The notes beneath the pieces are model-generated. The model made no database searches, was not told where the DNA came from, and was given only the letters and a program-made list of their open reading frames with translations. A program made the position numbers and the translations under genes. Source: Giardia intestinalis (taxonomy: Eukaryota). From it: a stretch of DNA of 64,000 nt. Location of the stretch: NCBI GenBank assembly GCA_000002435.2, contig CM018791.1. One strand, written 5' to 3'. How positions within the stretch are numbered: the stretch's first letter is position 1; each line of letters starts with the position of its first letter. Shown one piece after another: positions 6,979 to 48,581 of this stretch.

Positions 6979-7542
6979 TTATGTGCTTTTGGACGACTTG
7001 TGATTGGTAATAGAGGGAAGGTGTGGGCTTTCGCGACTATTAAAGTCATGTCTTGGTAGGGTACCAAGCACACTCTTTTCTGCAGGAGAAGACGGGGGAA
7101 GAAACTGGCAAGATATGGGTGTTCCTGTTTTGTTAATGAAGCACTCGTATGGAGTCAAATGAACAGGCGAGCCACGGGGATGGGGATAGAACTTTTTCCC
7201 TGACTCATAGACCAAGACCTGACCTTGTTGCTGAAGCTTAGACCGCGTGTTCGGCTGGCAAGAGGGAGTTTTCGGATCATAGGGTCCACAAGCCATCATA
7301 GAAACACTTAAAGGTGGGTCATAGAGACACGAAGTAGTTGATGAAGTGGCACTCAATGAAGGCGTGGCCAGCCTTGATAAAGTTGAGGAGTCTACCTCTT
7401 GCGAGAGGGGGGATAATCTAGAATAAGGCAAAGTGGTTGAAGAAGGCCCAGATGGCTGAAAAGTTGACGAATGTGGCACTGTATCTGACTCAGAAGATGG
7501 TTGCCGGACATGCGGTATGTTTGACTTACGAGATTCCGCCAT
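6979..7542 (-). CDS. Ser/Pro/Thr-rich low-complexity hypothetical protein (187 aa)
   Basis: ATG verified at 7542..7540. Convergent with the 5449..6930 gene and directly abutting the left edge of the 51-bp satellite. No recognisable domain. Confidence 0.3.
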   Translation of the reverse strand: MAESRKSNIPHVRQPSSESDTVPHSSTFQPSGPSSTTLPYSRLSPLSQEVDSSTLSRLATPSLSATSSTTSCLYDPPLSVSMMACGPYDPKTPSCQPNTRSKLQQQGQVLVYESGKKFYPHPRGSPVHLTPYECFINKTGTPISCQFLPPSSPAEKSVLGTLPRHDFNSRESPHLPSITNHKSSKST

Positions 7543-7689
7543 TTTTGCCAGTTTTTTAAGATCCGAATAACAAGAAACGCACGGGGTGTAAAGAAAAATG
7601 AGATAGAATACATACGGTTAAAGAGCAGTTAGCTTTAGACTGTGAACAAAACGCAGGTGGCACTATTATATAATATGGTCGAGGCGTAG

Positions 7690-13600: not shown

Positions 13601-16600
13601 NNNNNNNNNNNNNNNNNNNNNNNNNNNNNNNNNNNNNNNNNNNNNNNNNNNNNNNNNNNNNNNNNNNNNNNNNNNNNNNNNNNNNNNNNNNNNNNNNNNN
13701 NNNNNNNNNNNNNNNNNNNNNNNNNNNNNNNNNNNNNNNNNNNNNNNNNNNNNNNNNNNNNNNNNNNNNNNNNNNNNNNNNNNNNNNNNNNNNNNNNNNN
13801 NNNNNNNNNNNNNNNNNNNNNNNNNNNNNNNNNNNNNNNNNNNNNNNNNNNNNNNNNNNNNNNNNNNNNNNNNNNNNNNNNNNNNNNNNNNNNNNNNNNN
13901 NNNNNNNNNNNNNNNNNNNNNNNNNNNNNNNNNNNNNNNNNNNNNNNNNNNNNNNNNNNNNNNNNNNNNNNNNNNNNNNNNNNNNNNNNNNNNNNNNNNN
14001 NNNNNNNNNNNNNNNNNNNNNNNNNNNNNNNNNNNNNNNNNNNNNNNNNNNNNNNNNNNNNNNNNNNNNNNNNNNNNNNNNNNNNNNNNNNNNNNNNNNN
14101 NNNNNNNNNNNNNNNNNNNNNNNNNNNNNNNNNNNNNNNNNNNNNNNNNNNNNNNNNNNNNNNNNNNNNNNNNNNNNNNNNNNNNNNNNNNNNNNNNNNN
14201 NNNNNNNNNNNNNNNNNNNNNNNNNNNNNNNNNNNNNNNNNNNNNNNNNNNNNNNNNNNNNNNNNNNNNNNNNNNNNNNNNNNNNNNNNNNNNNNNNNNN
14301 NNNNNNNNNNNNNNNNNNNNNNNNNNNNNNNNNNNNNNNNNNNNNNNNNNNNNNNNNNNNNNNNNNNNNNNNNNNNNNNNNNNNNNNNNNNNNNNNNNNN
14401 NNNNNNNNNNNNNNNNNNNNNNNNNNNNNNNNNNNNNNNNNNNNNNNNNNNNNNNNNNNNNNNNNNNNNNNNNNNNNNNNNNNNNNNNNNNNNNNNNNNN
14501 NNNNNNNNNNNNNNNNNNNNNNNNNNNNNNNNNNNNNNNNNNNNNNNNNNNNNNNNNNNNNNNNNNNNNNNNNNNNNNNNNNNNNNNNNNNNNNNNNNNN
14601 NNNNNNNNNNNNNNNNNNNNNNNNNNNNNNNNNNNNNNNNNNNNNNNNNNNNNNNNNNNNNNNNNNNNNNNNNNNNNNNNNNNNNNNNNNNNNNNNNNNN
14701 NNNNNNNNNNNNNNNNNNNNNNNNNNNNNNNNNNNNNNNNNNNNNNNNNNNNNNNNNNNNNNNNNNNNNNNNNNNNNNNNNNNNNNNNNNNNNNNNNNNN
14801 NNNNNNNNNNNNNNNNNNNNNNNNNNNNNNNNNNNNNNNNNNNNNNNNNNNNNNNNNNNNNNNNNNNNNNNNNNNNNNNNNNNNNNNNNNNNNNNNNNNN
14901 NNNNNNNNNNNNNNNNNNNNNNNNNNNNNNNNNNNNNNNNNNNNNNNNNNNNNNNNNNNNNNNNNNNNNNNNNNNNNNNNNNNNNNNNNNNNNNNNNNNN
15001 NNNNNNNNNNNNNNNNNNNNNNNNNNNNNNNNNNNNNNNNNNNNNNNNNNNNNNNNNNNNNNNNNNNNNNNNNNNNNNNNNNNNNNNNNNNNNNNNNNNN
15101 NNNNNNNNNNNNNNNNNNNNNNNNNNNNNNNNNNNNNNNNNNNNNNNNNNNNNNNNNNNNNNNNNNNNNNNNNNNNNNNNNNNNNNNNNNNNNNNNNNNN
15201 NNNNNNNNNNNNNNNNNNNNNNNNNNNNNNNNNNNNNNNNNNNNNNNNNNNNNNNNNNNNNNNNNNNNNNNNNNNNNNNNNNNNNNNNNNNNNNNNNNNN
15301 NNNNNNNNNNNNNNNNNNNNNNNNNNNNNNNNNNNNNNNNNNNNNNNNNNNNNNNNNNNNNNNNNNNNNNNNNNNNNNNNNNNNNNNNNNNNNNNNNNNN
15401 NNNNNNNNNNNNNNNNNNNNNNNNNNNNNNNNNNNNNNNNNNNNNNNNNNNNNNNNNNNNNNNNNNNNNNNNNNNNNNNNNNNNNNNNNNNNNNNNNNNN
15501 NNNNNNNNNNNNNNNNNNNNNNNNNNNNNNNNNNNNNNNNNNNNNNNNNNNNNNNNNNNNNNNNNNNNNNNNNNNNNNNNNNNNNNNNNNNNNNNNNNNN
15601 NNNNNNNNNNNNNNNNNNNNNNNNNNNNNNNNNNNNNNNNNNNNNNNNNNNNNNNNNNNNNNNNNNNNNNNNNNNNNNNNNNNNNNNNNNNNNNNNNNNN
15701 NNNNNNNNNNNNNNNNNNNNNNNNNNNNNNNNNNNNNNNNNNNNNNNNNNNNNNNNNNNNNNNNNNNNNNNNNNNNNNNNNNNNNNNNNNNNNNNNNNNN
15801 NNNNNNNNNNNNNNNNNNNNNNNNNNNNNNNNNNNNNNNNNNNNNNNNNNNNNNNNNNNNNNNNNNNNNNNNNNNNNNNNNNNNNNNNNNNNNNNNNNNN
15901 NNNNNNNNNNNNNNNNNNNNNNNNNNNNNNNNNNNNNNNNNNNNNNNNNNNNNNNNNNNNNNNNNNNNNNNNNNNNNNNNNNNNNNNNNNNNNNNNNNNN
16001 NNNNNNNNNNNNNNNNNNNNNNNNNNNNNNNNNNNNNNNNNNNNNNNNNNNNNNNNNNNNNNNNNNNNNNNNNNNNNNNNNNNNNNNNNNNNNNNNNNNN
16101 NNNNNNNNNNNNNNNNNNNNNNNNNNNNNNNNNNNNNNNNNNNNNNNNNNNNNNNNNNNNNNNNNNNNNNNNNNNNNNNNNNNNNNNNNNNNNNNNNNNN
16201 NNNNNNNNNNNNNNNNNNNNNNNNNNNNNNNNNNNNNNNNNNNNNNNNNNNNNNNNNNNNNNNNNNNNNNNNNNNNNNNNNNNNNNNNNNNNNNNNNNNN
16301 NNNNNNNNNNNNNNNNNNNNNNNNNNNNNNNNNNNNNNNNNNNNNNNNNNNNNNNNNNNNNNNNNNNNNNNNNNNNNNNNNNNNNNNNNNNNNNNNNNNN
16401 NNNNNNNNNNNNNNNNNNNNNNNNNNNNNNNNNNNNNNNNNNNNNNNNNNNNNNNNNNNNNNNNNNNNNNNNNNNNNNNNNNNNNNNNNNNNNNNNNNNN
16501 NNNNNNNNNNNNNNNNNNNNNNNNNNNNNNNNNNNNNNNNNNNNNNNNNNNNNNNNNNNNNNNNNNNNNNNNNNNNNNNNNNNNNNNNNNNNNNNNNNNN

Positions 16601-19600
16601 NNNNNNNNNNNNNNNNNNNNNNNNNNNNNNNNNNNNNNNNNNNNNNNNNNNNNNNNNNNNNNNNNNNNNNNNNNNNNNNNNNNNNNNNNNNNNNNNNNNN
16701 NNNNNNNNNNNNNNNNNNNNNNNNNNNNNNNNNNNNNNNNNNNNNNNNNNNNNNNNNNNNNNNNNNNNNNNNNNNNNNNNNNNNNNNNNNNNNNNNNNNN
16801 NNNNNNNNNNNNNNNNNNNNNNNNNNNNNNNNNNNNNNNNNNNNNNNNNNNNNNNNNNNNNNNNNNNNNNNNNNNNNNNNNNNNNNNNNNNNNNNNNNNN
16901 NNNNNNNNNNNNNNNNNNNNNNNNNNNNNNNNNNNNNNNNNNNNNNNNNNNNNNNNNNNNNNNNNNNNNNNNNNNNNNNNNNNNNNNNNNNNNNNNNNNN
17001 NNNNNNNNNNNNNNNNNNNNNNNNNNNNNNNNNNNNNNNNNNNNNNNNNNNNNNNNNNNNNNNNNNNNNNNNNNNNNNNNNNNNNNNNNNNNNNNNNNNN
17101 NNNNNNNNNNNNNNNNNNNNNNNNNNNNNNNNNNNNNNNNNNNNNNNNNNNNNNNNNNNNNNNNNNNNNNNNNNNNNNNNNNNNNNNNNNNNNNNNNNNN
17201 NNNNNNNNNNNNNNNNNNNNNNNNNNNNNNNNNNNNNNNNNNNNNNNNNNNNNNNNNNNNNNNNNNNNNNNNNNNNNNNNNNNNNNNNNNNNNNNNNNNN
17301 NNNNNNNNNNNNNNNNNNNNNNNNNNNNNNNNNNNNNNNNNNNNNNNNNNNNNNNNNNNNNNNNNNNNNNNNNNNNNNNNNNNNNNNNNNNNNNNNNNNN
17401 NNNNNNNNNNNNNNNNNNNNNNNNNNNNNNNNNNNNNNNNNNNNNNNNNNNNNNNNNNNNNNNNNNNNNNNNNNNNNNNNNNNNNNNNNNNNNNNNNNNN
17501 NNNNNNNNNNNNNNNNNNNNNNNNNNNNNNNNNNNNNNNNNNNNNNNNNNNNNNNNNNNNNNNNNNNNNNNNNNNNNNNNNNNNNNNNNNNNNNNNNNNN
17601 NNNNNNNNNNNNNNNNNNNNNNNNNNNNNNNNNNNNNNNNNNNNNNNNNNNNNNNNNNNNNNNNNNNNNNNNNNNNNNNNNNNNNNNNNNNNNNNNNNNN
17701 NNNNNNNNNNNNNNNNNNNNNNNNNNNNNNNNNNNNNNNNNNNNNNNNNNNNNNNNNNNNNNNNNNNNNNNNNNNNNNNNNNNNNNNNNNNNNNNNNNNN
17801 NNNNNNNNNNNNNNNNNNNNNNNNNNNNNNNNNNNNNNNNNNNNNNNNNNNNNNNNNNNNNNNNNNNNNNNNNNNNNNNNNNNNNNNNNNNNNNNNNNNN
17901 NNNNNNNNNNNNNNNNNNNNNNNNNNNNNNNNNNNNNNNNNNNNNNNNNNNNNNNNNNNNNNNNNNNNNNNNNNNNNNNNNNNNNNNNNNNNNNNNNNNN
18001 NNNNNNNNNNNNNNNNNNNNNNNNNNNNNNNNNNNNNNNNNNNNNNNNNNNNNNNNNNNNNNNNNNNNNNNNNNNNNNNNNNNNNNNNNNNNNNNNNNNN
18101 NNNNNNNNNNNNNNNNNNNNNNNNNNNNNNNNNNNNNNNNNNNNNNNNNNNNNNNNNNNNNNNNNNNNNNNNNNNNNNNNNNNNNNNNNNNNNNNNNNNN
18201 NNNNNNNNNNNNNNNNNNNNNNNNNNNNNNNNNNNNNNNNNNNNNNNNNNNNNNNNNNNNNNNNNNNNNNNNNNNNNNNNNNNNNNNNNNNNNNNNNNNN
18301 NNNNNNNNNNNNNNNNNNNNNNNNNNNNNNNNNNNNNNNNNNNNNNNNNNNNNNNNNNNNNNNNNNNNNNNNNNNNNNNNNNNNNNNNNNNNNNNNNNNN
18401 NNNNNNNNNNNNNNNNNNNNNNNNNNNNNNNNNNNNNNNNNNNNNNNNNNNNNNNNNNNNNNNNNNNNNNNNNNNNNNNNNNNNNNNNNNNNNNNNNNNN
18501 NNNNNNNNNNNNNNNNNNNNNNNNNNNNNNNNNNNNNNNNNNNNNNNNNNNNNNNNNNNNNNNNNNNNNNNNNNNNNNNNNNNNNNNNNNNNNNNNNNNN
18601 NNNNNNNNNNNNNNNNNNNNNNNNNNNNNNNNNNNNNNNNNNNNNNNNNNNNNNNNNNNNNNNNNNNNNNNNNNNNNNNNNNNNNNNNNNNNNNNNNNNN
18701 NNNNNNNNNNNNNNNNNNNNNNNNNNNNNNNNNNNNNNNNNNNNNNNNNNNNNNNNNNNNNNNNNNNNNNNNNNNNNNNNNNNNNNNNNNNNNNNNNNNN
18801 NNNNNNNNNNNNNNNNNNNNNNNNNNNNNNNNNNNNNNNNNNNNNNNNNNNNNNNNNNNNNNNNNNNNNNNNNNNNNNNNNNNNNNNNNNNNNNNNNNNN
18901 NNNNNNNNNNNNNNNNNNNNNNNNNNNNNNNNNNNNNNNNNNNNNNNNNNNNNNNNNNNNNNNNNNNNNNNNNNNNNNNNNNNNNNNNNNNNNNNNNNNN
19001 NNNNNNNNNNNNNNNNNNNNNNNNNNNNNNNNNNNNNNNNNNNNNNNNNNNNNNNNNNNNNNNNNNNNNNNNNNNNNNNNNNNNNNNNNNNNNNNNNNNN
19101 NNNNNNNNNNNNNNNNNNNNNNNNNNNNNNNNNNNNNNNNNNNNNNNNNNNNNNNNNNNNNNNNNNNNNNNNNNNNNNNNNNNNNNNNNNNNNNNNNNNN
19201 NNNNNNNNNNNNNNNNNNNNNNNNNNNNNNNNNNNNNNNNNNNNNNNNNNNNNNNNNNNNNNNNNNNNNNNNNNNNNNNNNNNNNNNNNNNNNNNNNNNN
19301 NNNNNNNNNNNNNNNNNNNNNNNNNNNNNNNNNNNNNNNNNNNNNNNNNNNNNNNNNNNNNNNNNNNNNNNNNNNNNNNNNNNNNNNNNNNNNNNNNNNN
19401 NNNNNNNNNNNNNNNNNNNNNNNNNNNNNNNNNNNNNNNNNNNNNNNNNNNNNNNNNNNNNNNNNNNNNNNNNNNNNNNNNNNNNNNNNNNNNNNNNNNN
19501 NNNNNNNNNNNNNNNNNNNNNNNNNNNNNNNNNNNNNNNNNNNNNNNNNNNNNNNNNNNNNNNNNNNNNNNNNNNNNNNNNNNNNNNNNNNNNNNNNNNN

Positions 19601-22600
19601 NNNNNNNNNNNNNNNNNNNNNNNNNNNNNNNNNNNNNNNNNNNNNNNNNNNNNNNNNNNNNNNNNNNNNNNNNNNNNNNNNNNNNNNNNNNNNNNNNNNN
19701 NNNNNNNNNNNNNNNNNNNNNNNNNNNNNNNNNNNNNNNNNNNNNNNNNNNNNNNNNNNNNNNNNNNNNNNNNNNNNNNNNNNNNNNNNNNNNNNNNNNN
19801 NNNNNNNNNNNNNNNNNNNNNNNNNNNNNNNNNNNNNNNNNNNNNNNNNNNNNNNNNNNNNNNNNNNNNNNNNNNNNNNNNNNNNNNNNNNNNNNNNNNN
19901 NNNNNNNNNNNNNNNNNNNNNNNNNNNNNNNNNNNNNNNNNNNNNNNNNNNNNNNNNNNNNNNNNNNNNNNNNNNNNNNNNNNNNNNNNNNNNNNNNNNN
20001 NNNNNNNNNNNNNNNNNNNNNNNNNNNNNNNNNNNNNNNNNNNNNNNNNNNNNNNNNNNNNNNNNNNNNNNNNNNNNNNNNNNNNNNNNNNNNNNNNNNN
20101 NNNNNNNNNNNNNNNNNNNNNNNNNNNNNNNNNNNNNNNNNNNNNNNNNNNNNNNNNNNNNNNNNNNNNNNNNNNNNNNNNNNNNNNNNNNNNNNNNNNN
20201 NNNNNNNNNNNNNNNNNNNNNNNNNNNNNNNNNNNNNNNNNNNNNNNNNNNNNNNNNNNNNNNNNNNNNNNNNNNNNNNNNNNNNNNNNNNNNNNNNNNN
20301 NNNNNNNNNNNNNNNNNNNNNNNNNNNNNNNNNNNNNNNNNNNNNNNNNNNNNNNNNNNNNNNNNNNNNNNNNNNNNNNNNNNNNNNNNNNNNNNNNNNN
20401 NNNNNNNNNNNNNNNNNNNNNNNNNNNNNNNNNNNNNNNNNNNNNNNNNNNNNNNNNNNNNNNNNNNNNNNNNNNNNNNNNNNNNNNNNNNNNNNNNNNN
20501 NNNNNNNNNNNNNNNNNNNNNNNNNNNNNNNNNNNNNNNNNNNNNNNNNNNNNNNNNNNNNNNNNNNNNNNNNNNNNNNNNNNNNNNNNNNNNNNNNNNN
20601 NNNNNNNNNNNNNNNNNNNNNNNNNNNNNNNNNNNNNNNNNNNNNNNNNNNNNNNNNNNNNNNNNNNNNNNNNNNNNNNNNNNNNNNNNNNNNNNNNNNN
20701 NNNNNNNNNNNNNNNNNNNNNNNNNNNNNNNNNNNNNNNNNNNNNNNNNNNNNNNNNNNNNNNNNNNNNNNNNNNNNNNNNNNNNNNNNNNNNNNNNNNN
20801 NNNNNNNNNNNNNNNNNNNNNNNNNNNNNNNNNNNNNNNNNNNNNNNNNNNNNNNNNNNNNNNNNNNNNNNNNNNNNNNNNNNNNNNNNNNNNNNNNNNN
20901 NNNNNNNNNNNNNNNNNNNNNNNNNNNNNNNNNNNNNNNNNNNNNNNNNNNNNNNNNNNNNNNNNNNNNNNNNNNNNNNNNNNNNNNNNNNNNNNNNNNN
21001 NNNNNNNNNNNNNNNNNNNNNNNNNNNNNNNNNNNNNNNNNNNNNNNNNNNNNNNNNNNNNNNNNGTTTCCCGGTCAACGAGGTATGTCGATGGGCCTAG
21101 GCTGGCCCGGAGTCCCATTTCCCCCGGTCAACGAGGTATGTCGATGGGCCTAGCTGGCCCGGAGTTCCTGTTTCCCCGGTCAACGAGGTGCGTCGATGGG
21201 CCAACCTGTCCTGGCATGCTGTTTCCCCGGTCAACGAGGTGCGTCGATGGGCCAACCTGTCCTGGCATGCTGTTTCCCCGGTCAACGAGGTGCGTCGATG
21301 GGCCAACCTGTCCTGGCATGCCTGTTTTCCCCGGTCAACGGGTGGTCGATGGGCAACTTCCTGGCTCTTTTCCCCGGTCACGAGGTGTCGATGGGCCTAG
21401 CTGGCCGGGTCCCATTTCCCCGGTCAACGAGGTGCGTCGATGGGCCAACCTGTCCTGGCATGCCTGTTTCCCGGTCAACGAGGTGCGTCGATGGGCCAAC
21501 CTGTCCGGCATGTCCGTTTCCCCCGGTCAACGAGGTGCGTCGATGGGCCAACCTGTCCTGGCATGCGTTTCCCCGGTCAACGAGGTGCGTCGATGGGCCA
21601 ACCTGTCCTGGCATGCTGTTTCCCCGGTCAACGAGGTATGTCGATGGGCCTAGCTGGCCCGGAGTCCCATTTCCCCGGTCAACGAGGTGCGTCGATGGGC
21701 CAACCTGTCCCGGCATGCCTTTCCCCGGTCAACGAGGTGCGTCGATGGGCCAGCTGGCCCGGATCCTTTTCCCCGGTCAACGAGGTGCGTCGATGGGCCA
21801 ACCTGTCCTGGCATGCTGTTTCCCCCGGTCAACGAGGTGCGTCGATGGGCCAACCTGTCCTGGCAGCTGTTTCCCCGGTCAACGAGGTGCGTCGATGGGC
21901 CAACCTGTCCTGGCATGCTGTTTCCCCGGTCAACGAGGTATGTCGATGGGCCAGCTGCCCGGATCCCATTTCCCCGGTCAACGAGGTGCGTCGATGGGCC
22001 AACCTGTCCTGGCATGCTGTTTCCCCGGTCAACGAGGGTGATGGCCCCCCCGAGGTGCGTCGATGGGCCAACCTGTCCTGGCATGCTGTTTCCCCGGTCA
22101 ACGAGGTATGTCGATGGCCAACCTGTCCTGGCATGCTGTTTCCCCGGTCAACGAGGTGCGTCGATGGGCCAACCTGTCCTGGCATGCTGTTTCCCCGGTC
22201 AACGAGGTATGTCGATGGGCCAACCTGTCCTGGCATGCTGTTTCCCCGGTCAACGAGGTAGTCGATGGGCCACTGCCGGATCCTTCCCCGGTCAACGAGG
22301 TATGTCGATGGGCCTAGCTGGCCCGGAGTCCCATTTCCCCGGTCAACGAGGTGCGTTCGAGGGCCGTCGATGGGCCAACCTGTCCTGGCATGCTGTTTCC
22401 CCGGTCAACGAGGTGCGTCGATGGGCCAACCTGTCCTGGCATGCTGTTTCCCCGGTCAACGAGGTGCGTCGATGGGCCAACCTGTCCTGGCATGCTGTTT
22501 CCCCGGTCAACGAGGTATGTCGATGGGCCTAGCTGGCCCGGAGTCCCATTTCCCCGGTCAACGAGGTATGTCGATGGGCCTAGCTGGCCCGGAGTCCCAT

Positions 22601-23106
22601 TTCCCCGGTCAACGAGGTGCGTCGATGGGCCAACCTGTCCTGGCATGCTGTTTCCCCGGTCAACGAGGTGCGTCGATGGGCCAACCTGTCCTGGCATGCT
22701 GTTTCCCCGGTCAACGAGGTGCGTCGATGGGCCAACCTGTCCTGGCATGCTGTTTCCCCGGTCAACGAGGTGCGTCGATGGGCCAACCTGTCCTGGCATG
22801 CTGTTTCCCCGGTCAACGAGGTATGTCGATGGGCCAACCTGTCCTGGCATGCTGTTTCCCCGGTCAACGAGGTGCGTCGATGGGCCAACCTGTCCTGGCA
22901 TGCTGTTTCCCCGGTCAACGAGGTGCGTCGATGGGCCAACCTGTCCTGGCATGCTGTTTCCCCGGTCAACGAGGTGCGTCGATGGGCCAACCTGTCCTGG
23001 CATGCTGTTTCCCCGGTCAACGAGGTGCGTCGATGGGCCAACCTGTCCTGGCATGCTGTTTCCCCGGTCAACGAGGTGCGTCGATGGGCCAACCTGTCCT
23101 GGCATG
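7690..23106. repeat. 51-bp tandem satellite array, ~79 resolved units on the left + ~40 on the right of an assembly gap; consensus ccaacctgtcctggcatgctgtttccccggtcaacgaggtgcgtcgatggg
   Basis: Period measured directly: 'cgaggt' recurs at 7741, 7792, 7843 (51 bp). Two unit variants alternate: A (...ccaacctgtcctggcatgctgttt...gaggtgcgtcg) and B (...cctagctggcccggagtcccattt...gaggtatgtcg). The edges (7707-8800, 22350-23106) are near-perfect. The interior (8900-11718, 21066-22300) carries many 1-2 bp indels. Right edge at 23106 (ggcatg|atatct). Confidence 0.95.
11719..21065. other. assembly gap (9,347 N) inside the satellite array
   Basis: Uninterrupted run of n from 11719 to 21065, with the same 51-bp repeat on both flanks. 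The true array length is therefore unknown. Confidence 0.98.
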
Positions 23107-25631
23107 ATATCTATCTGAGACTTATCATTACTATACTTAGGTGGCATATTATATGTTCCTTTAACTAGATAATGATTCAGATTAGAAACATTTTGGGCTC
23201 CAATGTCATAATAGCTAGATTGCTGATTCTTTTGATGACTCACTGAATTTTGCATCAAGGAGCAATTGACACCCTTATCAACAAGCACTTGATTAATTTC
23301 GCAAGTAGAACCATTGTGAATAAATGCACCATCGTTTAAATCTCCGCTTAGATTTGTAGACGGATCAGCTAATGATTTAACACTCAAATGCTCCTCTTTC
23401 CATGCTACATGGCTTGATTGCTGGCTTAGGACTTCCGCCTCCCTCTGCGATTCGTACTGCATACTGGGATCTTTGGCTTGTAAAACACTTCTGTTGCTAA
23501 GGTAATTAAGCTCAGGTGTGTAACCACTTAATTGGCGTGTGTTTTCATTTGGCAAAGTATCATACAATGTGCTATCTTTAACAGAGAAAAGAGAGCTGTT
23601 ATCTCCCCTATACCCTTGCTGGTTAGATACGCTTAGCTCCCGAGCGCCGGAGATACTTATGGTATTGTAAGGTGTATTGTCTTCATGAGATAGCTCCTTC
23701 ACAGTCTCGTTTTCTCCCGGTTCTGGGTTAACAAGTGTGCTATAGCTCAAACCCCGTGCATGAGACGCCGTGATGGTAACATCATAAGGTGCTGATGGTG
23801 AAACCTGTGAACGCACGGGAAGATTTGGATCCCAACAATAGCTATGATCATACGGTGATACTGCTGTTAGAGGGGTGTTTATTTCTGACGTACTAATGTC
23901 GGACCTATCTGGCTTCTGCATCAATGTATTCTTATACTCCGTTGTATTATAAGTTGCTCTCTTCGTTTGTCGTGTGTAATCAGTCATATCATGGATTGTC
24001 TCAGCCTTGTCGTCTGGGCGCGCAGGGAATGTGTCTCCTGGCTTTCCGTATGCATAGCTCAGTACGCGGGCGCTTTTTACTAAAATCGGCCCGTCATTTC
24101 TATAAGGCGTGAGCCCCATATCGCTTCCAACTAGATTAGTTTCCATATCAGAAAAGATATCCTTCTGTGTTTTCTCTTTGTAGTCTTTTACGAGTTTATT
24201 CTCGTCTAACAATTCTTCTCTTGTTTGTGCTACCTTCTCCAGTTTATCTTTCCAATAGTTAGCCCATGATATGTCGTCAGAAATAGTGACGGGCAGTGTT
24301 CCTGAAGTAGTACTGAGAACATTCTGTGTGTCTCCAGCCACAATTGCTGTGGGCATTGTAGCCAGCAGTGTTGCATTAGGTGTAAGTGCTATCTTCTTAG
24401 TGTCTTCAGATAACTGTACTTGGTGATCAATTGCGGTTGATTTCCCCGGTTCTATTGAATTACTTACATTCCTAAATAATGTCTGTAAATTGCTTGTTGC
24501 AGCGGCACTATATCCATAGTTCTCTGGGCAGGTATTACTGTAATCGTTAGATTTGAATGTCTGCTGCTGAGACTTTGTCGCTACTAATTGATCTTGTGGA
24601 GCAGGTTTCGAAGAAGCTAAGTTGCCATATTGAGATTGGTGTAATGGGACAGTGATAAGGGGGTCTTGCTGAGATTTCGTCCAGTATGCCGGTGCTTTGG
24701 AAACCTGGCTTCGTAGGCTTTCAAACGCGGAGGGGAGCTGAGGAGGAGGCACGATGGGGCCGTGCTCCTTCAAATAGTCACGGTACACAGACCATGCTTT
24801 ATGTATTCGTGGATGCTTGAGTAACTCATCTGCAGGAGGACGACTCCTGGGGTTATGATCGAGAAGCAGATTAATTATTCTGGTTAGCTCTGCACTGTAG
24901 CCGTGATATGATGTCTTTACAAAGGAACTGAGAGATTGTATGGCTTCCTGCTTGTTGGCACATGTCTCTCTGTACCGGCGAAGCGTGCACATTTCGTGTA
25001 GTACACATCCTAACATGAACATGTCGACCTTCGCCCCATACTTATGCCCCAAGAGCATTTCAGGCGCCATGTAAACATAATCGCCAACCTGTTCAGAGAT
25101 CTCAGACGCCTGACTCAAAGAGACTGCTTGACGCATACCGCCTAAAACACACGCTGTGTTGTTAGACAAGAATATGGTTTCTGGACGTATGTTTCGATGA
25201 ATTACTATTCCGACTTCGGGACAATTCAATTTATAAGGTGAATGTAGGTAGGCAAGCACATCGCAGAGCTGGGCAAGAACCATCCAAATAGTGCTTTCGT
25301 CATAGAGATGCGCAGCCTCAAATCTGTCAACGATTTGCTGCCGTAAGCTCTGGCTTAAATATGCATCCATGAAGACATAGTACGTGTGGCGGAACTGGTC
25401 GTGGAAAACATTATGAATCTGAAGAATTCCTGGGTGCTGAAGTCTCTGTGTTAGTTGATACTGTCGATCTACATGCTCTCGAAGAGTAGTTGCAGATTGA
25501 GTGTAGTCTATAACTTTGCAGACAACGTCGTGTGAGGTCCACGTATCGTGCGCCCAATGAATCCTAGAATGCTGCCCATGGGTAAGAAGAGGCCCAAGGC
25601 GGTACCTATCCATCAGGAGAGTCGTGAGCAT
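22314..25631 (-). CDS. NEK-like protein kinase (probably inactive: HRN for HRD, no DFG), long S/T/N-rich linker, C-terminus reading ~15.5 units into the 51-bp satellite; true 3' end uncertain
   Basis: ATG verified at 25631..25629. N-terminal kinase fold (MDRYRLGPLL...VVCKVID...HRNIRPETIFL...YMAPEML...DMFMLGCVLHEMC). The unique sequence ...KYSNDKSQIDI joins MPGQVGPSTHLVDRGNS repeats at 23106 with no stop. The first stop is at 22314, caused by a repeat variant. Confidence 0.6.
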   Translation of the reverse strand: MLTTLLMDRYRLGPLLTHGQHSRIHWAHDTWTSHDVVCKVIDYTQSATTLREHVDRQYQLTQRLQHPGILQIHNVFHDQFRHTYYVFMDAYLSQSLRQQIVDRFEAAHLYDESTIWMVLAQLCDVLAYLHSPYKLNCPEVGIVIHRNIRPETIFLSNNTACVLGGMRQAVSLSQASEISEQVGDYVYMAPEMLLGHKYGAKVDMFMLGCVLHEMCTLRRYRETCANKQEAIQSLSSFVKTSYHGYSAELTRIINLLLDHNPRSRPPADELLKHPRIHKAWSVYRDYLKEHGPIVPPPQLPSAFESLRSQVSKAPAYWTKSQQDPLITVPLHQSQYGNLASSKPAPQDQLVATKSQQQTFKSNDYSNTCPENYGYSAAATSNLQTLFRNVSNSIEPGKSTAIDHQVQLSEDTKKIALTPNATLLATMPTAIVAGDTQNVLSTTSGTLPVTISDDISWANYWKDKLEKVAQTREELLDENKLVKDYKEKTQKDIFSDMETNLVGSDMGLTPYRNDGPILVKSARVLSYAYGKPGDTFPARPDDKAETIHDMTDYTRQTKRATYNTTEYKNTLMQKPDRSDISTSEINTPLTAVSPYDHSYCWDPNLPVRSQVSPSAPYDVTITASHARGLSYSTLVNPEPGENETVKELSHEDNTPYNTISISGARELSVSNQQGYRGDNSSLFSVKDSTLYDTLPNENTRQLSGYTPELNYLSNRSVLQAKDPSMQYESQREAEVLSQQSSHVAWKEEHLSVKSLADPSTNLSGDLNDGAFIHNGSTCEINQVLVDKGVNCSLMQNSVSHQKNQQSSYYDIGAQNVSNLNHYLVKGTYNMPPKYSNDKSQIDIMPGQVGPSTHLVDRGNSMPGQVGPSTHLVDRGNSMPGQVGPSTHLVDRGNSMPGQVGPSTHLVDRGNSMPGQVGPSTHLVDRGNSMPGQVGPSTYLVDRGNSMPGQVGPSTHLVDRGNSMPGQVGPSTHLVDRGNSMPGQVGPSTHLVDRGNSMPGQVGPSTHLVDRGNGTPGQLGPSTYLVDRGNGTPGQLGPSTYLVDRGNSMPGQVGPSTHLVDRGNSMPGQVGPSTHLVDRGNSMPGQVGPSTALERTSLTGEMGLRAS

Positions 25632-25655: not shown

Positions 25656-27113
25656 TTACTCATTTTGGATAGCATCATCGACGAATTGAGACATATATGG
25701 TGTTTTGACACTAAATACAGAAGAATCAAGCCAATTTCTTTTCAAGATAGGCGATGCTTGAGCAGAATTGTTGTCTTGTTCTATTGTTCTAGTATGGTTA
25801 TCCTGGCCACCATCAAAATAGGCCATAGTATTAGATTGACGTATGGCTTGCAAAGTGTGATCATCGGCAGAGCTACATGATTGAATTTTATGCTGCTCTT
25901 TATCTTGAACGAAGTCCTGTACGATTGGTCTAAGATGACTAGGGCTCTGCTTCCTTTGTCGTTTATGCTTTAATGCATGCGATTGCTGCTTGTTGATCAG
26001 TAAGCTATCATCAAGAATAGAGCAACCACGCTTCTCTTCAAAGTCAAGAAGCAGAATATCATTGTAACGCGCCACGTAGTGAGCCTTGATGTTCGCAGCA
26101 GAGCCAGCTGAAGCACTTGCAAGCTCGGAAGACTCGTGGCTTTCAATGCTTGCTTGCGTGCACAAGAGATTGATGGACGAATCATCGTCTGCATGAACAC
26201 TACAAAACTGAGCATCCTGTGGCTGTAGCTCTTCTTCCTTTTCCTCTTCTTCTGTAAGCCCGTAAGTCCCCAAGCGAGCCTTATATGATTGAATCATTTC
26301 GCGAATAATTCCGTTAACAGATAGCACATCAACTGCTAGGCGGCATTCAGGCTCTAGTTCTAGGAAGGTGTTTATTATAGACGTCAAACTAGTGGAGTAC
26401 AGGGGCATCTGCACCTTTCTCTGCAGCTTTCCTAGCTTTTGTAAGGCATCCATTGGGTTTAGTGCAAGACAGAAAGGCCTAAACGTACAGAGTTCATATA
26501 TTATGCAACCCAAAGACCAAATGTCAGATTTTGTAGTAGCAACCCCTGTCCGCAGTAGCTCCGGTGCTCTATACTCTGCTGTGTGCACAGGAAAGCACTT
26601 GTAATACATGAGCTTGCGGGAGAGACTCAGAAAGCTCACAGTAATGATATCTAAGTTATCGATAAAGATAGATTCTGGTGTCAATGCATAAAGTAAAGCC
26701 TGGTCATGATTGGGCCCAACATCGTGTAGATAAGATAGAAGATCAATGAACTGAGATAGTATATACCAGACGCTCCGTTCTGGAAGGTGCGAGCCCCGAT
26801 CCAGAGCCTTTCGGCGTCTGATGTATTGACTCAGGGTCTCCTGCTTAACTTGCTCCATAAACAGGAAGTAACGTTGACCAGCACGATCATGCAACACGCT
26901 GAGATAATGAACAAGCAGAGGGTGTCGAAGCCGCTTAATTAGAGCAACCTCTCTGTGGAGCACAGCGGCCTCATGTGGAGACAGCCGACCGTACTCATAA
27001 ACCTTACAGAGACATGACTTCTGAATGCGTAGATCCGCTGCTTCGTATATTATGCTGTAGGAGCATGCCTTGAAGGGTTTTCCAAGACAAAACCTGTCGA
27101 GAATTCTAATCAT
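25656..27113 (-). CDS. NEK-like kinase paralog (pseudokinase-like; HRD and DFG absent)
   Basis: Track start 27209 is TTG. The frame upstream of it hits a stop at 27269..27267 with no ATG. The first ATG is 27113..27111, giving MIRILDRFCLGKPF... like the other paralogs (M..RY.L...G). Kinase C-lobe SDIWSLGCIIYELCTF is present. Confidence 0.7.
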   Translation of the reverse strand: MIRILDRFCLGKPFKACSYSIIYEAADLRIQKSCLCKVYEYGRLSPHEAAVLHREVALIKRLRHPLLVHYLSVLHDRAGQRYFLFMEQVKQETLSQYIRRRKALDRGSHLPERSVWYILSQFIDLLSYLHDVGPNHDQALLYALTPESIFIDNLDIITVSFLSLSRKLMYYKCFPVHTAEYRAPELLRTGVATTKSDIWSLGCIIYELCTFRPFCLALNPMDALQKLGKLQRKVQMPLYSTSLTSIINTFLELEPECRLAVDVLSVNGIIREMIQSYKARLGTYGLTEEEEKEEELQPQDAQFCSVHADDDSSINLLCTQASIESHESSELASASAGSAANIKAHYVARYNDILLLDFEEKRGCSILDDSLLINKQQSHALKHKRQRKQSPSHLRPIVQDFVQDKEQHKIQSCSSADDHTLQAIRQSNTMAYFDGGQDNHTRTIEQDNNSAQASPILKRNWLDSSVFSVKTPYMSQFVDDAIQNE

Positions 27114-27214
27114 TAATTCTAACCGTTTTTTGATCCTTTGATTCAAGTCAGAGCCCGCGGACGAGCTGCAAACAGACAGCGAAATAATTACGCTCACTAC
27201 CCTCCACAAACAAC

Positions 27215-28354
27215 TTAGTCGGCAAGAATTGTCCCTGGAGCAGTTAGTATCGACGACGTACCATGTTCAGACGACACTGTGGGGATACGCTTTGACCTTT
27301 CTGATGATGTTAGCCCAAACTGGGACACCAGCTCTCGATTTAACGTACAGCAGTTTCCCACTGGCTTCCCACAAACACAAAGAAGATCATGTTGGATCTC
27401 ACTGGAGAGCATTGGAGATTGAGCAGGTTGTGTCTTCCGTAGTGCTTCGTTATGAGAAATGACCCGCCTATACGTTCTCCATATATCGCAGACTGTATTC
27501 AGCTTCAAGATTTGCTTTGCATAGATACGCTGGCTAGGCTCTGGAGCAAGCATCTGAGAAAGAAGCGAGATTATATTGGCATCTTTACCGGTCAGTAGAG
27601 GGTCACTTTTGAAGGAGGGCGGTGCTGAGATGGAGTGTAGAATCTCTGACAAGCACGTCCCTTGAATGTACGGCACTCCGAGATAGAACTCATACATGAA
27701 GCATCCTAAGGACCAGATGTCTGAAGCCCACGTAGCTTGCTTACCCATCAAGATCTCTGGAGAAAGGTAGCGGGCGGTATTTGCAGACTGGCAATCAACG
27801 TTATTCGTTTCAATGTATTTGGACATTCGTATCTGTGCCACCGTTACCACTCCCAGATTATCCAGATAAATGCCAGCAGGGTCTAGAGAGCGCAGAATGA
27901 CTGTACTGATGTCCGGTGCATTTCTCTTAGACGGACTATGAAGATAAGCAAGAAGTTCCGCCAATTGCATCAGGACGAGCCAAAAGGTCTGCTTACTTGG
28001 GCTGGAAAATGTAGGGAGCTGATAGCTTCCTGTTCCAAAACGTAACCGTTGGTGCATCTTTAAACTATCTGTGCGCATGTCCTTCATGACCAAAAACGAT
28101 GAACCTATAGAGTCTCCCTCAGCTATCTCCAAATATTCCATCAAATTTGGATGTCTAAGTGTGCGCGTCAGTGATATATTCAAGTGCAACTGCGAGAGCA
28201 ACGAGAGTGAGAGCTTTGAGTAAATCAATCTCTTACACACACACGGTCTATAAGTATACCGATCAACAGCTAAATATAGAAACCCATGAGCTGTCTTCTG
28301 GCAAACGCTCCCCAGCTCGTACCGTTTCCCTATTACGATGCTAGTTTTCATCAT
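27215..28354 (-). CDS. NEK-like kinase paralog (pseudokinase-like) with C-terminal CVCGKPVGNCC cysteine motif
   Basis: ATG ATG verified at 28354..28349. IGKRYELGSVCQKTAHGFLYLA...CVCKRLIY...SDIWSLGCFMYEF. No HRD/DFG motifs. Confidence 0.7.
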   Translation of the reverse strand: MMKTSIVIGKRYELGSVCQKTAHGFLYLAVDRYTYRPCVCKRLIYSKLSLSLLSQLHLNISLTRTLRHPNLMEYLEIAEGDSIGSSFLVMKDMRTDSLKMHQRLRFGTGSYQLPTFSSPSKQTFWLVLMQLAELLAYLHSPSKRNAPDISTVILRSLDPAGIYLDNLGVVTVAQIRMSKYIETNNVDCQSANTARYLSPEILMGKQATWASDIWSLGCFMYEFYLGVPYIQGTCLSEILHSISAPPSFKSDPLLTGKDANIISLLSQMLAPEPSQRIYAKQILKLNTVCDIWRTYRRVISHNEALRKTQPAQSPMLSSEIQHDLLCVCGKPVGNCCTLNRELVSQFGLTSSERSKRIPTVSSEHGTSSILTAPGTILAD

Positions 28355-28418
28355 CTGCCCACACAGTTTTTGAAAACCGTAGGCTTAAAGCATTAACAAG
28401 GGATCAAAACAAATATCT

Positions 28419-30206
28419 TTACTGCATACTAGATTGAATAGATGAGATGTGCATAGATGACGGTTGTTCTCTATACCTATTGGGTCTGCCCTCATAAACG
28501 TCTGCTGGTTGCACAGAATTGTAAGAAATCTGTGCCTTGTATGATTGAATAGGGGAAGTGGCGACAGATTGCTTAAGAAAGTTGGGGCTGCAATGCACAG
28601 CATTGTGCTGTGTTGATGGCTTAACGAGTTTTCTAGCACTTGGGTGCAAATGCTGAGAAGATATGAATCCGTGTGTGTTAGGAGGAATGATCCTGTCTCG
28701 AATGAGCTCTAAGGATGGAACATCAGTTATAATATCCTGAAGCGTTACTGGAGAAGGCGTTCCAACCCCCTGATCACACATGTACTGATCCTGAATGGCA
28801 GGTTGATGCATAGTCTCAGGCTTATCGTCGACAGTGATTTCCTGAGAGTGCCTGCTCGGGAATGAAGACTGTTGTACCGGCTGTTCGTTCATTGATACCG
28901 AGCCACTTGAAGAAAAGCTAGCAGTGGGACTGAAACTAGAGATAGAGCTGCCTTGAAGCAGGTTTGCATTGTCGCTAAAGACTGATGGTTGCTCACTTAT
29001 CTGATTATACTGGATAGGGCGCCTAGCTCCGAGGGGCCGCGTGCGTGGCTCTGCAAACACTTTGCTGAGCATGTAGCGACGATGATGCCCTTTGCCCTGC
29101 TTAGATATCCAGTTGTTAACAATAGTGTAAGTATTCCCAGATGAATTTGCAACACGCGTATAGGAAACATTATGTGAATACGGGGGTTCTGCAGCAAGTT
29201 TCTTTAGGTACCGGCGATAGCCACAGCAATCGTCCATATTTCCTCCACATGCACAGGTACTCATTCGGGCTATACGTGGTTTGCGCTTATAGTAATGGAC
29301 CCGCAAGAGCTCCTTATATGTAATCATTAGCTCAGCTATTGGGGGGCGTGCAATAAGGTCATCGGTGCTGGGCCGCCTTTCTGGGCGTGGATTCAAAAGG
29401 TCTGTAATGAAGTCTGACAACTTTCTTGAATACTTAAACTTTGTGTTTGCTGGATTGGTTGTTAGTTCAACCGTTATGTTGGGAGGTGCAAGACTTAGTT
29501 CTAGCACTTGCTGTCTTGTCCAGCCAGTAACATATGGTCTGCGCATGCATAGCTCAAAGAGCGTTGCGCCTAGTGACCAGATGTCCATAGTGTGGAAAGG
29601 CCTAGCACCTGCTAAGAGCTCTGGGGCATTATAACAAGGGGTCTCGTAGTCAGCTGACTCCGGAAATATATCAAAACGTGCTAGTCGAACTGTGTCCACG
29701 AGAACAAAGCCCATTTCGCTAATATATATGCAAGACGGCCTCAAATCCAGGAGAACTTTGTCTTTTGTGGCTGTCTGAGATGAGTAGTCTGCCAAGAACT
29801 TAATGAGTTGAGTGGCGATCATCCAAATGGTGTCTTCGGAGAAAAAGAAGTCGTCCATAATAGCAGTATCCAACTGGGTTCGCAGGTCTCCGTACTTATG
29901 TAGATCTACAAGAGCAGCAAGGTTTCCACCTTTTTGGTCCAAGACTACGCTGCTGTATTTCATCTGTCCCGGAAATGTAGATTTCTGGGCCAAGGCTGCT
30001 TCGTAACGAATGAGCTCAATCTGGTGGCTTGTCAGCTTTGCAAGTGGAAACTTCTTACAGCTAAATTGCCGCTGCGACGTGATGTCTTTCATACAGAATA
30101 TGTGTGAGTATTTGCCACGAAAAATCTCAGACTCTTGCCGATACCTTCCTAAGAGAAGTTGGTCCTCGGCAGCAGGCTGTGTGGCAGGATAGTTGACTGC
30201 TAACAT
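28419..30206 (-). CDS. NEK-like kinase paralog (pseudokinase-like) with CACGGNMDDCC motif and S-rich tail
   Basis: ATG verified at 30206..30204. LLGRYRQESEIFRGKYSHIFCMKD...SCKKF...DIWSLGATLFELC. Confidence 0.75.
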   Translation of the reverse strand: MLAVNYPATQPAAEDQLLLGRYRQESEIFRGKYSHIFCMKDITSQRQFSCKKFPLAKLTSHQIELIRYEAALAQKSTFPGQMKYSSVVLDQKGGNLAALVDLHKYGDLRTQLDTAIMDDFFFSEDTIWMIATQLIKFLADYSSQTATKDKVLLDLRPSCIYISEMGFVLVDTVRLARFDIFPESADYETPCYNAPELLAGARPFHTMDIWSLGATLFELCMRRPYVTGWTRQQVLELSLAPPNITVELTTNPANTKFKYSRKLSDFITDLLNPRPERRPSTDDLIARPPIAELMITYKELLRVHYYKRKPRIARMSTCACGGNMDDCCGYRRYLKKLAAEPPYSHNVSYTRVANSSGNTYTIVNNWISKQGKGHHRRYMLSKVFAEPRTRPLGARRPIQYNQISEQPSVFSDNANLLQGSSISSFSPTASFSSSGSVSMNEQPVQQSSFPSRHSQEITVDDKPETMHQPAIQDQYMCDQGVGTPSPVTLQDIITDVPSLELIRDRIIPPNTHGFISSQHLHPSARKLVKPSTQHNAVHCSPNFLKQSVATSPIQSYKAQISYNSVQPADVYEGRPNRYREQPSSMHISSIQSSMQ

Positions 30207-30688
30207 CTAGCCTTGAACTCTGTGTGTCCACTGCAGAGACTGTGCTAATTTAAAAACTCTTCAGGCTATTGGGGTTACAGAGTTTGTTTTTGAAACACAG
30301 ACCTAGCTTACAACGTAGAGTAACAACCACTCGCCTACAGCTAGGTCGTTTTCATTTACTTCACATAAAACGGTCAACCTAAAGAAGCAGAATAATTTAT
30401 ATAAATTAAACTAAGAGTTTTTAATCCGCTCAAGATACACCCAAAGGTACAGCTTATGCATAACCTGTAACTATAATTAAGAATACACAACAATACATGC
30501 GTTGAGAGCTACCCGTTTTGGTCGAGATTGTCTGATTTGATAGTAGCTTCGTAGCAATCTTCGCAATGATTTAAAATTTTGCCTGCGTGCTAGTGCTTAT
30601 GATGACATAGGTTCACCATAGCCTTGCTTCTATCAAGACAGGAGATGTCACAGTGTTCGTACCGCACAGTAAAAAGCGCTGACAAGAC

Positions 30689-48566: not shown

Positions 48567-48573
48567 GTTTACT
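48567..48573 (-). promoter_or_regulatory. putative polyadenylation signal AGTAAAC two nt after the VSP stop (TAG GT AGTAAAC)
   Basis: + strand gtttact at 48567-73 is AGTAAAC on minus, immediately 3' of the TAG stop (48584..48582). Matches the Giardia AGTRAAY consensus. Confidence 0.5.
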
Positions 48574-48581
48574 ACCTAAGT

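What the first reader, a model, noticed from the sequence alone, without database searches (positions are those of the whole stretch)
22314..23106. NEK-like kinase ORF reads seamlessly into the satellite, predicting a (MPGQVGPSTHLVDRGNS)n C-terminal tail
The kinase gene's unique sequence (...KYSNDKSQIDI) continues in frame into the 51-bp repeats at 23106 with no stop. The first stop comes 793 bp later at 22314, from a repeat variant. Either the protein carries a 17-residue tandem C-terminal repeat of unknown length (G/P/S/T-rich, one Met per unit), or the real stop or poly(A) site is missing or misassembled. Two of three minus frames are open in the repeat, so open frame alone is weak evidence. 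However, the junction shows no poly(A) signal (AGTRAAY) or stop.
Basis: partly seen in the sequence, partly recalled or inferred. Interest (0 to 1): 0.65.

Follow-up and report, generated by a model that had tools for sequence, protein, structure and literature searches.

The report
Giardia pseudokinase with giant repeat tail
The 51-base "satellite" is really the protein-coding tail of a Giardia kinase-like gene, kept under selection in three Giardia lineages.

Summary
ORF 22314..25631(-) encodes 1105 aa: a protein-kinase domain, 842 unique residues ending ...KYSNDKSQIDI, then 51-bp units encoding MPGQVGPSTHLVDRGNS.

The repeat is coding.
- Orthologues in Giardia assemblage E (P15) and assemblage B enter the same repeat at the same codon, in the same frame.
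- The A and E consensus units differ at 7 bases. All 7 are third-codon positions and synonymous.
- Across all unit types, 13/17 third positions vary, against 8/34 first and second positions (p=6e-4).
- This is the only sense frame open in every unit variant.

The array is one block, 7707..23105, split by a 9347-N assembly gap. That is about 302 units if the gap size is right.
- Only the ~700 bp next to each unique flank are clean.
- Interior departures are indel-dominated: 211 indel bases against 39 substitutions.
- The stop at 22314 needs an 11-nt insertion (22354..22364) plus a minor-variant TAG read out of frame, so it is probably an artefact.
- The likely real stop is TAG 7697..7699, two codons past the array. 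P15 has TGA at the homologous codon.

The kinase lacks both catalytic Asp residues (HRN; DFG replaced by GGM), so it is a pseudokinase. The fold and function of the tail are unproven.

The parts
25629..25631 (-). Start codon ATG of the kinase-like gene
   Evidence: ORF list and translation. The N-terminus MLTTLLMDRYRLGPLL is identical in the P15 and assemblage B orthologues.
24810..25589 (-). Protein-kinase domain (aa 15-274), predicted catalytically dead
   Evidence: Pfam Pkinase, E=9.6e-30. The best solved relatives are NEK1 and NEK2, E about 1e-21. In the alignment, HRD is replaced by HRN and DFG by GGM (Gly replaces the Asp).
23106..24809 (-). Unique C-terminal region (aa 275-842) with no recognised domain
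   Evidence: No Pfam match. Conserved in E and B, with pN 0.09 and 0.15 against pS 0.41 and 0.65.
22392..23105 (-). Fourteen perfect in-frame 51-bp units encoding MPGQVGPSTHLVDRGNS and the minor TPGQLGPSTYLVDRGNG
   Evidence: Unit-by-unit parse. The junction is homologous in A, E and B.
22354..22364 (-). 11-nt insertion (GCCCTCGAACG) in unit 14 that breaks the frame; probably a consensus error
   Evidence: It looks like a noisy duplicate of the preceding GCCCATCGACG.
22314..22316 (-). TAG that ends the ORF as assembled; a minor-unit CAG-CTA-GGC read in the +2 frame
21066..22391 (-). Proximal interior of the array, indel-ridden, running into the gap
11719..21065 (.). Assembly gap of 9347 N inside the array
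7707..11718 (-). Distal part of the same array (78 units plus a partial unit). It is noisy near the gap. 10 of the last 11 units are perfect 51-bp units and one has a 1-nt deletion.
7697..7708 (-). Proposed true end of the ORF: GGA CGT TTC TAG (…MPGQVG-R-F-stop) in the repeat frame
   Evidence: P15 has GGT TGT TTC TGA at the homologous position. Assemblage B has GFYNSII-stop.
7543..7696 (-). 154-nt spacer (putative 3' UTR plus the next promoter) before the next minus-strand gene
   Evidence: A and E share a conserved block, TCTAAAG(C/T)TAA(C/A)TGCTCTTTAAC. There is no perfect AGTRAAY.
6979..7542 (-). Downstream 187-aa gene. Its orthologue directly follows the kinase gene in assemblage B.

Best explanation
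The 51-bp array is a protein-coding minisatellite. It forms the C-terminal part of a Giardia NEK-like pseudokinase gene.

Transcription and translation start at 25631, run through the dead kinase domain and a 568-residue unique region, and enter the repeat at 23105.

Shown: the repeat was already present, in frame, at this junction in the common ancestor of assemblages A, B and E. Since then it has evolved under purifying selection on the peptide xPGQ[VLM]xPS[TA][HY]LVDRGN[SG].

Inferred: in this genome the ORF most likely continues through the whole array (about 15.4 kb, about 300 units) to TAG 7697..7699. That would give a protein of roughly 6000 residues. The stop at 22314 and the many other frame breaks in the interior would then be consensus errors of a long-read assembly. 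That assembly could be polished only within about one short-read insert length of the unique flanks.

Inferred, weakly: the tail acts as a structural or multivalent anchoring module for the pseudokinase scaffold, probably on the cytoskeleton. It would be either a right-handed beta-solenoid rod with one 17-residue coil per unit or a flexible Gly/Pro-rich spacer.
For: Conserved junction and frame
- The orthologues are P0001 (P15, assemblage E) and P0002, P0036 and P0038 (assemblage B). All read from ...SQ(I/T)(D/N)x into the repeat in the same frame.

Substitution pattern
- The A and E major units differ at 7 of 51 nt. All 7 are third positions and synonymous; the chance of that is (1/3)^7 = 4.6e-4.
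- Across nine unit types from A, E and B, variable columns number 6, 2 and 13 at codon positions 1, 2 and 3 (Fisher p=6e-4). Eleven of 17 residues are invariant.
- Nei-Gojobori on the repeat gives pS 0.54 and pN 0.027 for A-E, and pS 0.42 and pN 0.114 for A-B. This matches the kinase domain (A-E pS 0.33, pN 0.028).

Open frames
- The MPGQ frame is the only sense frame open in every unit variant of all three assemblages.

Gene layout
- There is no spacer, stop or AGTRAA between the unique part and the array.
- Only 154 nt separate the distal end of the array from the next gene.

Distal stop
- The repeat frame ends two codons past the array in both A (TAG) and E (TGA), a stop-to-stop change at the same codon.

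The interior breaks look like errors
- In 114 units there are 130 deleted and 81 inserted bases against 39 substitutions. 51 units are perfect.
- Clean sequence extends only about 714 bp from the proximal flank and about 560 bp from the distal flank.
- This matches the published Giardia WB assembly procedure: PacBio RS II, Quiver, PBJelly gap extension, gap sizes taken from optical maps, and Illumina correction only where at least 10 reads map. [quoted passage not shown]

Argument from homogenisation (inference)
- Unequal exchange homogenises the whole array. A strictly synonymous divergence of the array-wide consensus therefore implies that most units are exposed to selection.
Against: - As assembled, the frame is broken about 45 times, and I cannot prove that these breaks are errors.
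- No transcript or peptide data were available, and no paper mentions the peptide.
- Copy number in E and B is unknown. Short-read assemblies show 3, 6 and 7 units, which may be collapsed or may be real. The huge array could therefore be a recent expansion in A that partly escapes selection.
- There is no canonical AGTRAAY in the A or E distal spacer.
- The AlphaFold beta-solenoid carries little weight. An off-frame translation of the same DNA also gets pLDDT 89, as a single long helix.
- That the window is the WB PacBio assembly is my inference, not a tool result.
Confidence: 0.65

Rival explanations
1. Short tail. The repeat is coding, but in this strain the protein really ends after about 15 units at 22314, or at another genuine frameshift nearby. 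The remaining ~14 kb would be untranslated, formerly coding repeat carried in the 3' region.
For: The assembly as given has the stop at 22314 and many later frame breaks. Some odd units recur, for example CAGCTGGCCC and GGAAAGGACTCC. Recurrence could mean real variants spread by unequal exchange.
Against: - Departures are indel-dominated, 211 indel bases against 39 substitutions, which is unlike natural decay.
- 86% of edits fall in the 47% of the unit where major and minor variants differ, as expected if reads from different units were mixed during consensus calling. Part of this clustering is a segmentation artefact of my parse.
- The distal end is again clean and in frame with a stop conserved in P15.
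- An untranslated bulk of the array would not keep an array-wide consensus that diverges only synonymously.
Confidence: 0.27
2. Non-coding satellite, for example a structural or centromeric repeat, that abuts the kinase gene and happens to lack stops. The true stop and 3' end of the kinase gene would have been lost by misassembly at the junction.
For: The unit is about 63% G+C and 5 of 6 frames of the major unit are open, so openness is cheap. The array contains an assembly gap.
Against: - The same junction appears in four independent assemblies of three assemblages.
- Divergence is at third positions and synonymous.
- The unit length is a multiple of 3.
- There is normal gene spacing beyond the distal end of the array.
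- The literature search found nothing on Giardia satellite centromeres.
Confidence: 0.03
3. The coding strand is the opposite one. The antisense frame LFPRSTRCVDGPTCPGM, also open in every variant, would be the translated frame.
For: The antisense -2 frame is open in all unit variants. It scores 6 synonymous to 1 non-synonymous for the A-E major units.
Against: - It is the shadow frame whose third positions coincide with those of the sense frame, so it inherits part of the signal.
- In all other comparisons it is worse than the sense frame. For A-B it scores 3:4 and 1:5, against 5:3 and 5:3 for the sense frame.
- It has no upstream ORF or promoter context, and it would run antisense into the kinase gene.
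Confidence: 0.02

Closest known systems
Annotated orthologues: 'Kinase, NEK' of Giardia lamblia P15 (EFO64379.1, 949 aa) and 'Serine/threonine protein kinase' of assemblage B (ESU43930.1, 962 aa; KWX12190.1, 894 aa)
   Same: Same gene and same synteny: four upstream kinase genes and the same 187-aa downstream gene. The junction and the 17-residue repeat frame are the same. The repeat is already part of the deposited protein models.
   Different: Those models carry only 3 to 7 units, from short-read assemblies. The three 102-bp copies in L003 are identical, so their number is arbitrary. The P15 model is frameshifted by a single missing G and ends in a false tail. Here the array spans about 15 kb.
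Giardia expanded NEK family, mostly pseudokinases (Manning et al. 2011, PMC3218828)
   Same: N-terminal kinase domain closest to NEK1 and NEK2. Loss of key catalytic residues, as in 71% of Giardia NEKs. Member of a tandem kinase cluster. C-terminal repeats presumed to mediate localisation.
   Different: Typical Giardia NEKs carry TALM-ankyrin repeats or coiled coils. This one has no ankyrin match and instead a near-perfect 17-residue tandem repeat that is not in Pfam.
Giant repetitive cytoskeleton-associated proteins of other parasitic protists (Trypanosoma brucei MARPs with 38-aa repeats; Leishmania kinesin K39 with 39-aa repeats). Recalled from memory, not tested here.
   Same: Long arrays of nearly identical short coding repeats attached to a catalytic or motor-type head, homogenised by concerted evolution, and routinely collapsed or gapped in assemblies.
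   Different: No sequence relationship. Microtubule binding or antigenicity of the Giardia repeat is untested.
Right-handed beta-solenoid repeat proteins (Marinomonas primoryensis antifreeze adhesin region IV, PDB 3p4g; autotransporter passengers such as Ag43)
   Different: There is no sequence similarity or Pfam membership, and Foldseek finds no significant match. Model confidence is not discriminating, because an off-frame control also reaches pLDDT 89. The known examples are bacterial and extracellular.

Membership tests
Eukaryotic protein kinase superfamily | Pkinase fold domain detectable by profile | tested here: met
   PF00069, E=9.6e-30, 104 bits against a cut-off of 31.7, aa 15-274.
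NEK kinase family | Kinase domain closer to NEKs than to other kinase families | tested here: inconclusive
   The top solved relatives are NEK1 (1.8e-21) and NEK2 (1.6e-20), but Aurora A is nearly equal (4e-20). The P15 orthologue is named 'Kinase, NEK' by its depositors. No phylogeny was done.
Active protein kinase | Catalytic residues: beta3 Lys, HRD Asp, DFG Asp | tested here: not met
   In the alignment to NEK1, Lys is kept (VVCK), HRD is replaced by HRN and DFG by GGM (Gly replaces the Asp). This predicts a pseudokinase, as for 71% of Giardia NEKs (PMC3218828).
Giardia NEK/Protein 21.1 ankyrin architecture | TALM-ankyrin repeats C-terminal to the kinase domain | tested here: not met
   No Ank family hit in the whole protein or in the C-terminal region.
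Protein-coding tandem repeat (coding minisatellite) | Unit length a multiple of three, with a frame continuous with a flanking ORF | tested here: met
   51 bp equals 17 codons. Fourteen perfect units run in frame with the kinase ORF.
Protein-coding tandem repeat (coding minisatellite) | Divergence between orthologous arrays concentrated at synonymous sites of that frame | tested here: met
   All 7 A-E differences are synonymous. Variable columns number 6, 2 and 13 by codon position, p=6e-4. pN/pS is about 0.05 for A-E.
Protein-coding tandem repeat (coding minisatellite) | Direct evidence of transcription and translation of the repeat | not testable with these tools
   No RNA-seq or proteomics access. 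A full-text search for the peptide found 0 papers.
Non-coding satellite DNA | No reading-frame-dependent constraint; lies between genes | tested here: not met
   There is a frame-specific synonymous bias. There is no spacer at the proximal junction, and only 154 nt separate the array from the next gene at the distal end.
Beta-solenoid repeat proteins | One beta-helical coil per repeat in a reliable structure or model | tested here: inconclusive

The most novel reading that the evidence does not exclude
The whole ~15-kb array is one uninterrupted ORF. Giardia would then make a pseudokinase of about 6000 residues (about 0.6 MDa) whose ~300 identical 17-residue units stack into a single beta-solenoid rod roughly 140 nm long. 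That figure assumes 4.8 Å per coil, a textbook value. The rod would be a cytoskeletal ruler or spacer carrying a dead NEK domain at one end, and array length would vary between strains.
Probability: 0.15. Interest if true: 0.65.

Novelty: new member of a known kind. Interest (0 to 1): 0.4.

Why it matters
One of the few unresolved internal gaps of this Giardia assembly appears to lie inside a gene, not in junk DNA. The gene model for this locus is therefore wrong in every assembly examined here.
- It is truncated by an artefactual stop in this window.
- It is frameshifted in P15.
- It carries an arbitrary copy number in assemblage B.

If the array is fully translated, this may be among the largest Giardia proteins. 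It would be an unusual architecture: a dead NEK domain joined to hundreds of perfect 17-residue repeats. That bears on how the greatly expanded NEK pseudokinase family is anchored in the parasite's cytoskeleton.

The highly repetitive peptide could also be a useful strain-typing locus or a serological antigen, as repetitive antigens are in trypanosomatids. More generally, comparing synonymous sites between lineages can separate a coding array from a satellite when an open frame alone is uninformative.

Tried and rejected
- **Repeat-only protein search.** It returned nothing, not even the known positives P0001 and P0036, so it says nothing about other proteins carrying the repeat.
- **Exhaustive HMMER search with the unique C-terminus plus 6 units.** It recovered only the Giardia orthologue cluster. 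The other hits were unrelated low-complexity tandem-repeat proteins, for example the bacterial repeat CGPGTELVDGACVPTFE. I judged these convergent. No orthologue outside the A/B/E group, such as in G. muris, was detected.
- **Metagenome DNA scan with a degenerate 24-mer of the unit.** 0 hits.
- **Full-text search for the peptide** and for Giardia satellite or centromere repeats. Nothing relevant.
- **Pfam on the repeat and on the unique C-terminal region.** Only sub-threshold noise.
- **AlphaFold confidence as evidence that the tail is folded.** Rejected after the off-frame control.
- **Poly(A) signal.** There is no AGTRAAY in the array or in the A distal spacer. Assemblage B has AGTAAAC starting 27 nt after its stop. 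Other genes in the window also lack a perfect motif, so its absence is not informative.
- **Position of edits within the unit.** The clustering suggests mixing of unit types during consensus calling. It is partly an artefact of how I cut the units, so I use it only as supporting evidence.
Full report
**What is in the sequence**

The minus-strand ORF 22314..25631 encodes 1105 residues.
- Residues 15-274 are a protein-kinase domain (Pfam PF00069, E=9.6e-30).
- The closest solved relatives are human NEK1 and NEK2 (E about 1e-21), with Aurora A nearly as close.
- In that alignment the catalytic HRD is HRN and the DFG motif is GGM, with Gly in place of the Asp, while the beta3 lysine is kept. The protein is therefore predicted to be a pseudokinase. 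Manning et al. found this for 71% of Giardia NEKs (PMC3218828).
- Residues 275-842 match no Pfam family.
- The unique sequence ends ...KYSNDKSQIDI at 23106. From 23105 the ORF continues without interruption into 51-bp units encoding MPGQVGPSTHLVDRGNS.

**Organism and orthologues**

The only close homologues in 5.8 billion proteins are 'Kinase, NEK' of Giardia lamblia P15 (assemblage E, 83% identity) and a serine/threonine kinase of assemblage B (76%). From this I infer that the window is Giardia duodenalis, most likely assemblage A.

Both loci are syntenic with the window. Four kinase genes and an HMG-CoA synthase gene lie upstream, and in assemblage B the 187-aa gene of window 6979..7542 lies directly downstream.

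**The 'satellite' is one array with a hole in it**

Tandem Repeats Finder reports the same 51-bp unit at 7707..11675 and at 21066..23106. Between them lie 9347 N, at 11719..21065. The array therefore spans 7707..23105, which is 15,399 bp or 301.9 units if the gap length is right. Of this, 6052 bp are actually sequenced.

**Is the repeat coding?**

An open frame is nearly worthless here, because 5 of 6 frames of the major unit are open. The comparative evidence is what decides the question.

1. In P15 (L001) and in two assemblage B isolates (L002, L003), the orthologous ORF enters the same repeat at the homologous codon and in the same frame.
2. The consensus major units of A and E differ at 7 of 51 bases. 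All seven are third codon positions and synonymous in the MPGQ frame. The chance of that is 4.6e-4.
3. Across nine unit types from A, E and B, the variable columns number 6, 2 and 13 at codon positions 1, 2 and 3 (Fisher p=6e-4). Eleven of 17 residues are invariant, giving xPGQ[VLM]xPS[TA][HY]LVDRGN[SG].
4. Nei-Gojobori estimates for the repeat are pS 0.54 and pN 0.027 for A-E, and pS 0.42 and pN 0.114 for A-B. These resemble the kinase domain of the same gene (A-E pS 0.33, pN 0.028) and are tighter than its unique C-terminal region (pN 0.09).
5. The minor unit of A and the major unit of B carry stops in the second sense frame. The MPGQ frame is thus the only sense frame open in every variant.
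6. Two unit types, one with NS-M and one with NG-T/G at the unit boundary, occur in all three assemblages. In assemblage B they alternate as a 102-bp higher-order repeat.

The antisense -2 frame is also open everywhere, but it is the shadow frame sharing third positions with the sense frame. It scores worse in every comparison except A-E and has no gene context.

I conclude, with about 0.9 confidence, that the repeat is a translated part of the kinase-like gene.

**Where does the protein end?**

The stop at 22316..22314 is a CAG-CTA-GGC of a minor unit read one base out of frame. The shift is caused by an 11-nt insertion, GCCCTCGAACG at 22364..22354, in the fifteenth unit from the junction (unit 14 in the zero-based numbering). 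The insertion looks like a noisy copy of the preceding GCCCATCGACG.

Beyond that point, unit lengths scatter (42, 48, 50, 52, 62, 69 and so on) on both sides of the gap. Measured against the eight canonical unit forms, 114 units carry 130 deleted and 81 inserted bases but only 39 substitutions, and 51 units are perfect. Natural decay is dominated by substitutions. Uncorrected long-read consensus is dominated by indels.

Clean sequence extends only 714 bp from the proximal unique flank and about 560 bp from the distal one.

This pattern fits the published Giardia WB reference procedure (PMC7000408):
- PacBio RS II reads, HGAP and Quiver;
- gaps filled with N to the size given by optical maps;
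- PBJelly extension into the gaps;
- Illumina correction only where at least 10 reads map;

I infer, but cannot prove, that the window is that assembly or one made in a similar way, and that the interior frame breaks are artefacts.

At the distal end, the repeat frame reads ...NSMPGQVG-R-F-TAG (7708..7697) in this window and ...NSMPGQVG-C-F-TGA in P15. That is a stop-to-stop change at the same codon. Assemblage B ends ...STHLV-GFYNSII-TAG, with a canonical AGTAAAC starting 27 nt after the stop. Only 154 nt then separate the array from the ATG of the next gene.

Unequal exchange homogenises the whole array. A strictly synonymous divergence of the array-wide consensus therefore argues that most units, not just the first few, are under selection. 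I give about 0.6 to the reading that the ORF runs to 7697. That would make about 5977 codons, or roughly 0.6 MDa by my arithmetic.

**Other assemblies are also wrong at this locus**

- The P15 gene model has a frameshifted false tail (…GHRARWVRPRTSLIGETAC…). It is caused by a single missing G (AACGGACACC where AACGGGACACC is expected), and the contig stops 130 bp beyond a six-unit array.
- Assemblage B models have 3 or 7 units. The three 102-bp copies in L003 are identical, so their assembled number is arbitrary.
- Short-read assemblies are known to underestimate coding repeat numbers several-fold (PMC6868369).

**What the tail might be**

AlphaFold2 was run on a single sequence: 49 unique residues plus 14 units.
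- The unique part is predicted as disordered.
- The repeats are predicted as a regular beta-solenoid, one coil per 17 residues, with pLDDT 80-90 and pTM 0.68.
- Foldseek finds nothing significant.

As a control I folded the off-frame (+2) translation of the same DNA. It gave a single long helix with pLDDT 89. High confidence on perfect repeats is therefore not evidence. The solenoid remains a hypothesis, and a flexible Gly/Pro-rich spacer is equally possible.

Function is inferred only by analogy. Giardia NEKs localise to specific cytoskeletal structures, and their C-terminal repeats influence localisation (PMC3218828). Giant repetitive cytoskeletal proteins are known in trypanosomatids (from memory).

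**Novelty**

The gene and its repeat already exist in deposited protein models of other assemblages. Coding minisatellites are also a familiar kind of feature. What seems undescribed is threefold:
- the 17-residue repeat itself, with 0 papers mentioning it and no Pfam family;
- its purifying selection across assemblages;
- its apparent scale of about 300 units inside one of the reference assembly's residual gaps.

I rate it a new member of a known kind, with moderate interest.

Noticed in passing
window 34084..34518 (inside ORF 33871..36540, minus strand): A 90-bp tandem repeat, 4.8 copies, 100% identical. It encodes a 30-residue unit, DESYQRAATPECEESAEEPLAAPAPLDPAK, near the C-terminus of an 889-aa protein with no domain annotation in its orthologues. 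It is another perfect coding repeat whose copy number may be unreliable.
   Followed up: partly
window 63750..64000: A 66-bp tandem repeat (3.8 copies, 98% matches) running off the end of the window. Its coding status was not examined.
   Followed up: no
window 25656..32290, minus strand: A head-to-tail cluster of four further kinase-domain ORFs (25656..27209, 27215..28354, 28419..30206, 30689..32290) immediately upstream of the repeat-bearing gene. The arrangement is conserved in P15 and assemblage B.
   Followed up: partly
L001 12690..12700 (P15 contig ACVC01000096.1): The deposited P15 protein EFO64379.1 ends in a frameshifted false tail because one G is missing from a GGG run in the repeat. 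In the corrected frame the protein would end NSMPGQVGCF-stop.
   Followed up: yes
window 48000..51000: A stretch of raised G+C (0.54-0.56 against about 0.46 for the rest of the window) overlapping the 711-aa ORF 48582..50717 on the minus strand. Not examined.
   Followed up: no
P0041: A bacterial-looking protein carries a 17-residue Cys-containing repeat, CGPGTELVDGACVPTFE, that shares the GP.T.LVD.G spacing with the Giardia unit (E=2e-8). I judged this convergent low-complexity similarity but did not test it further.
   Followed up: no
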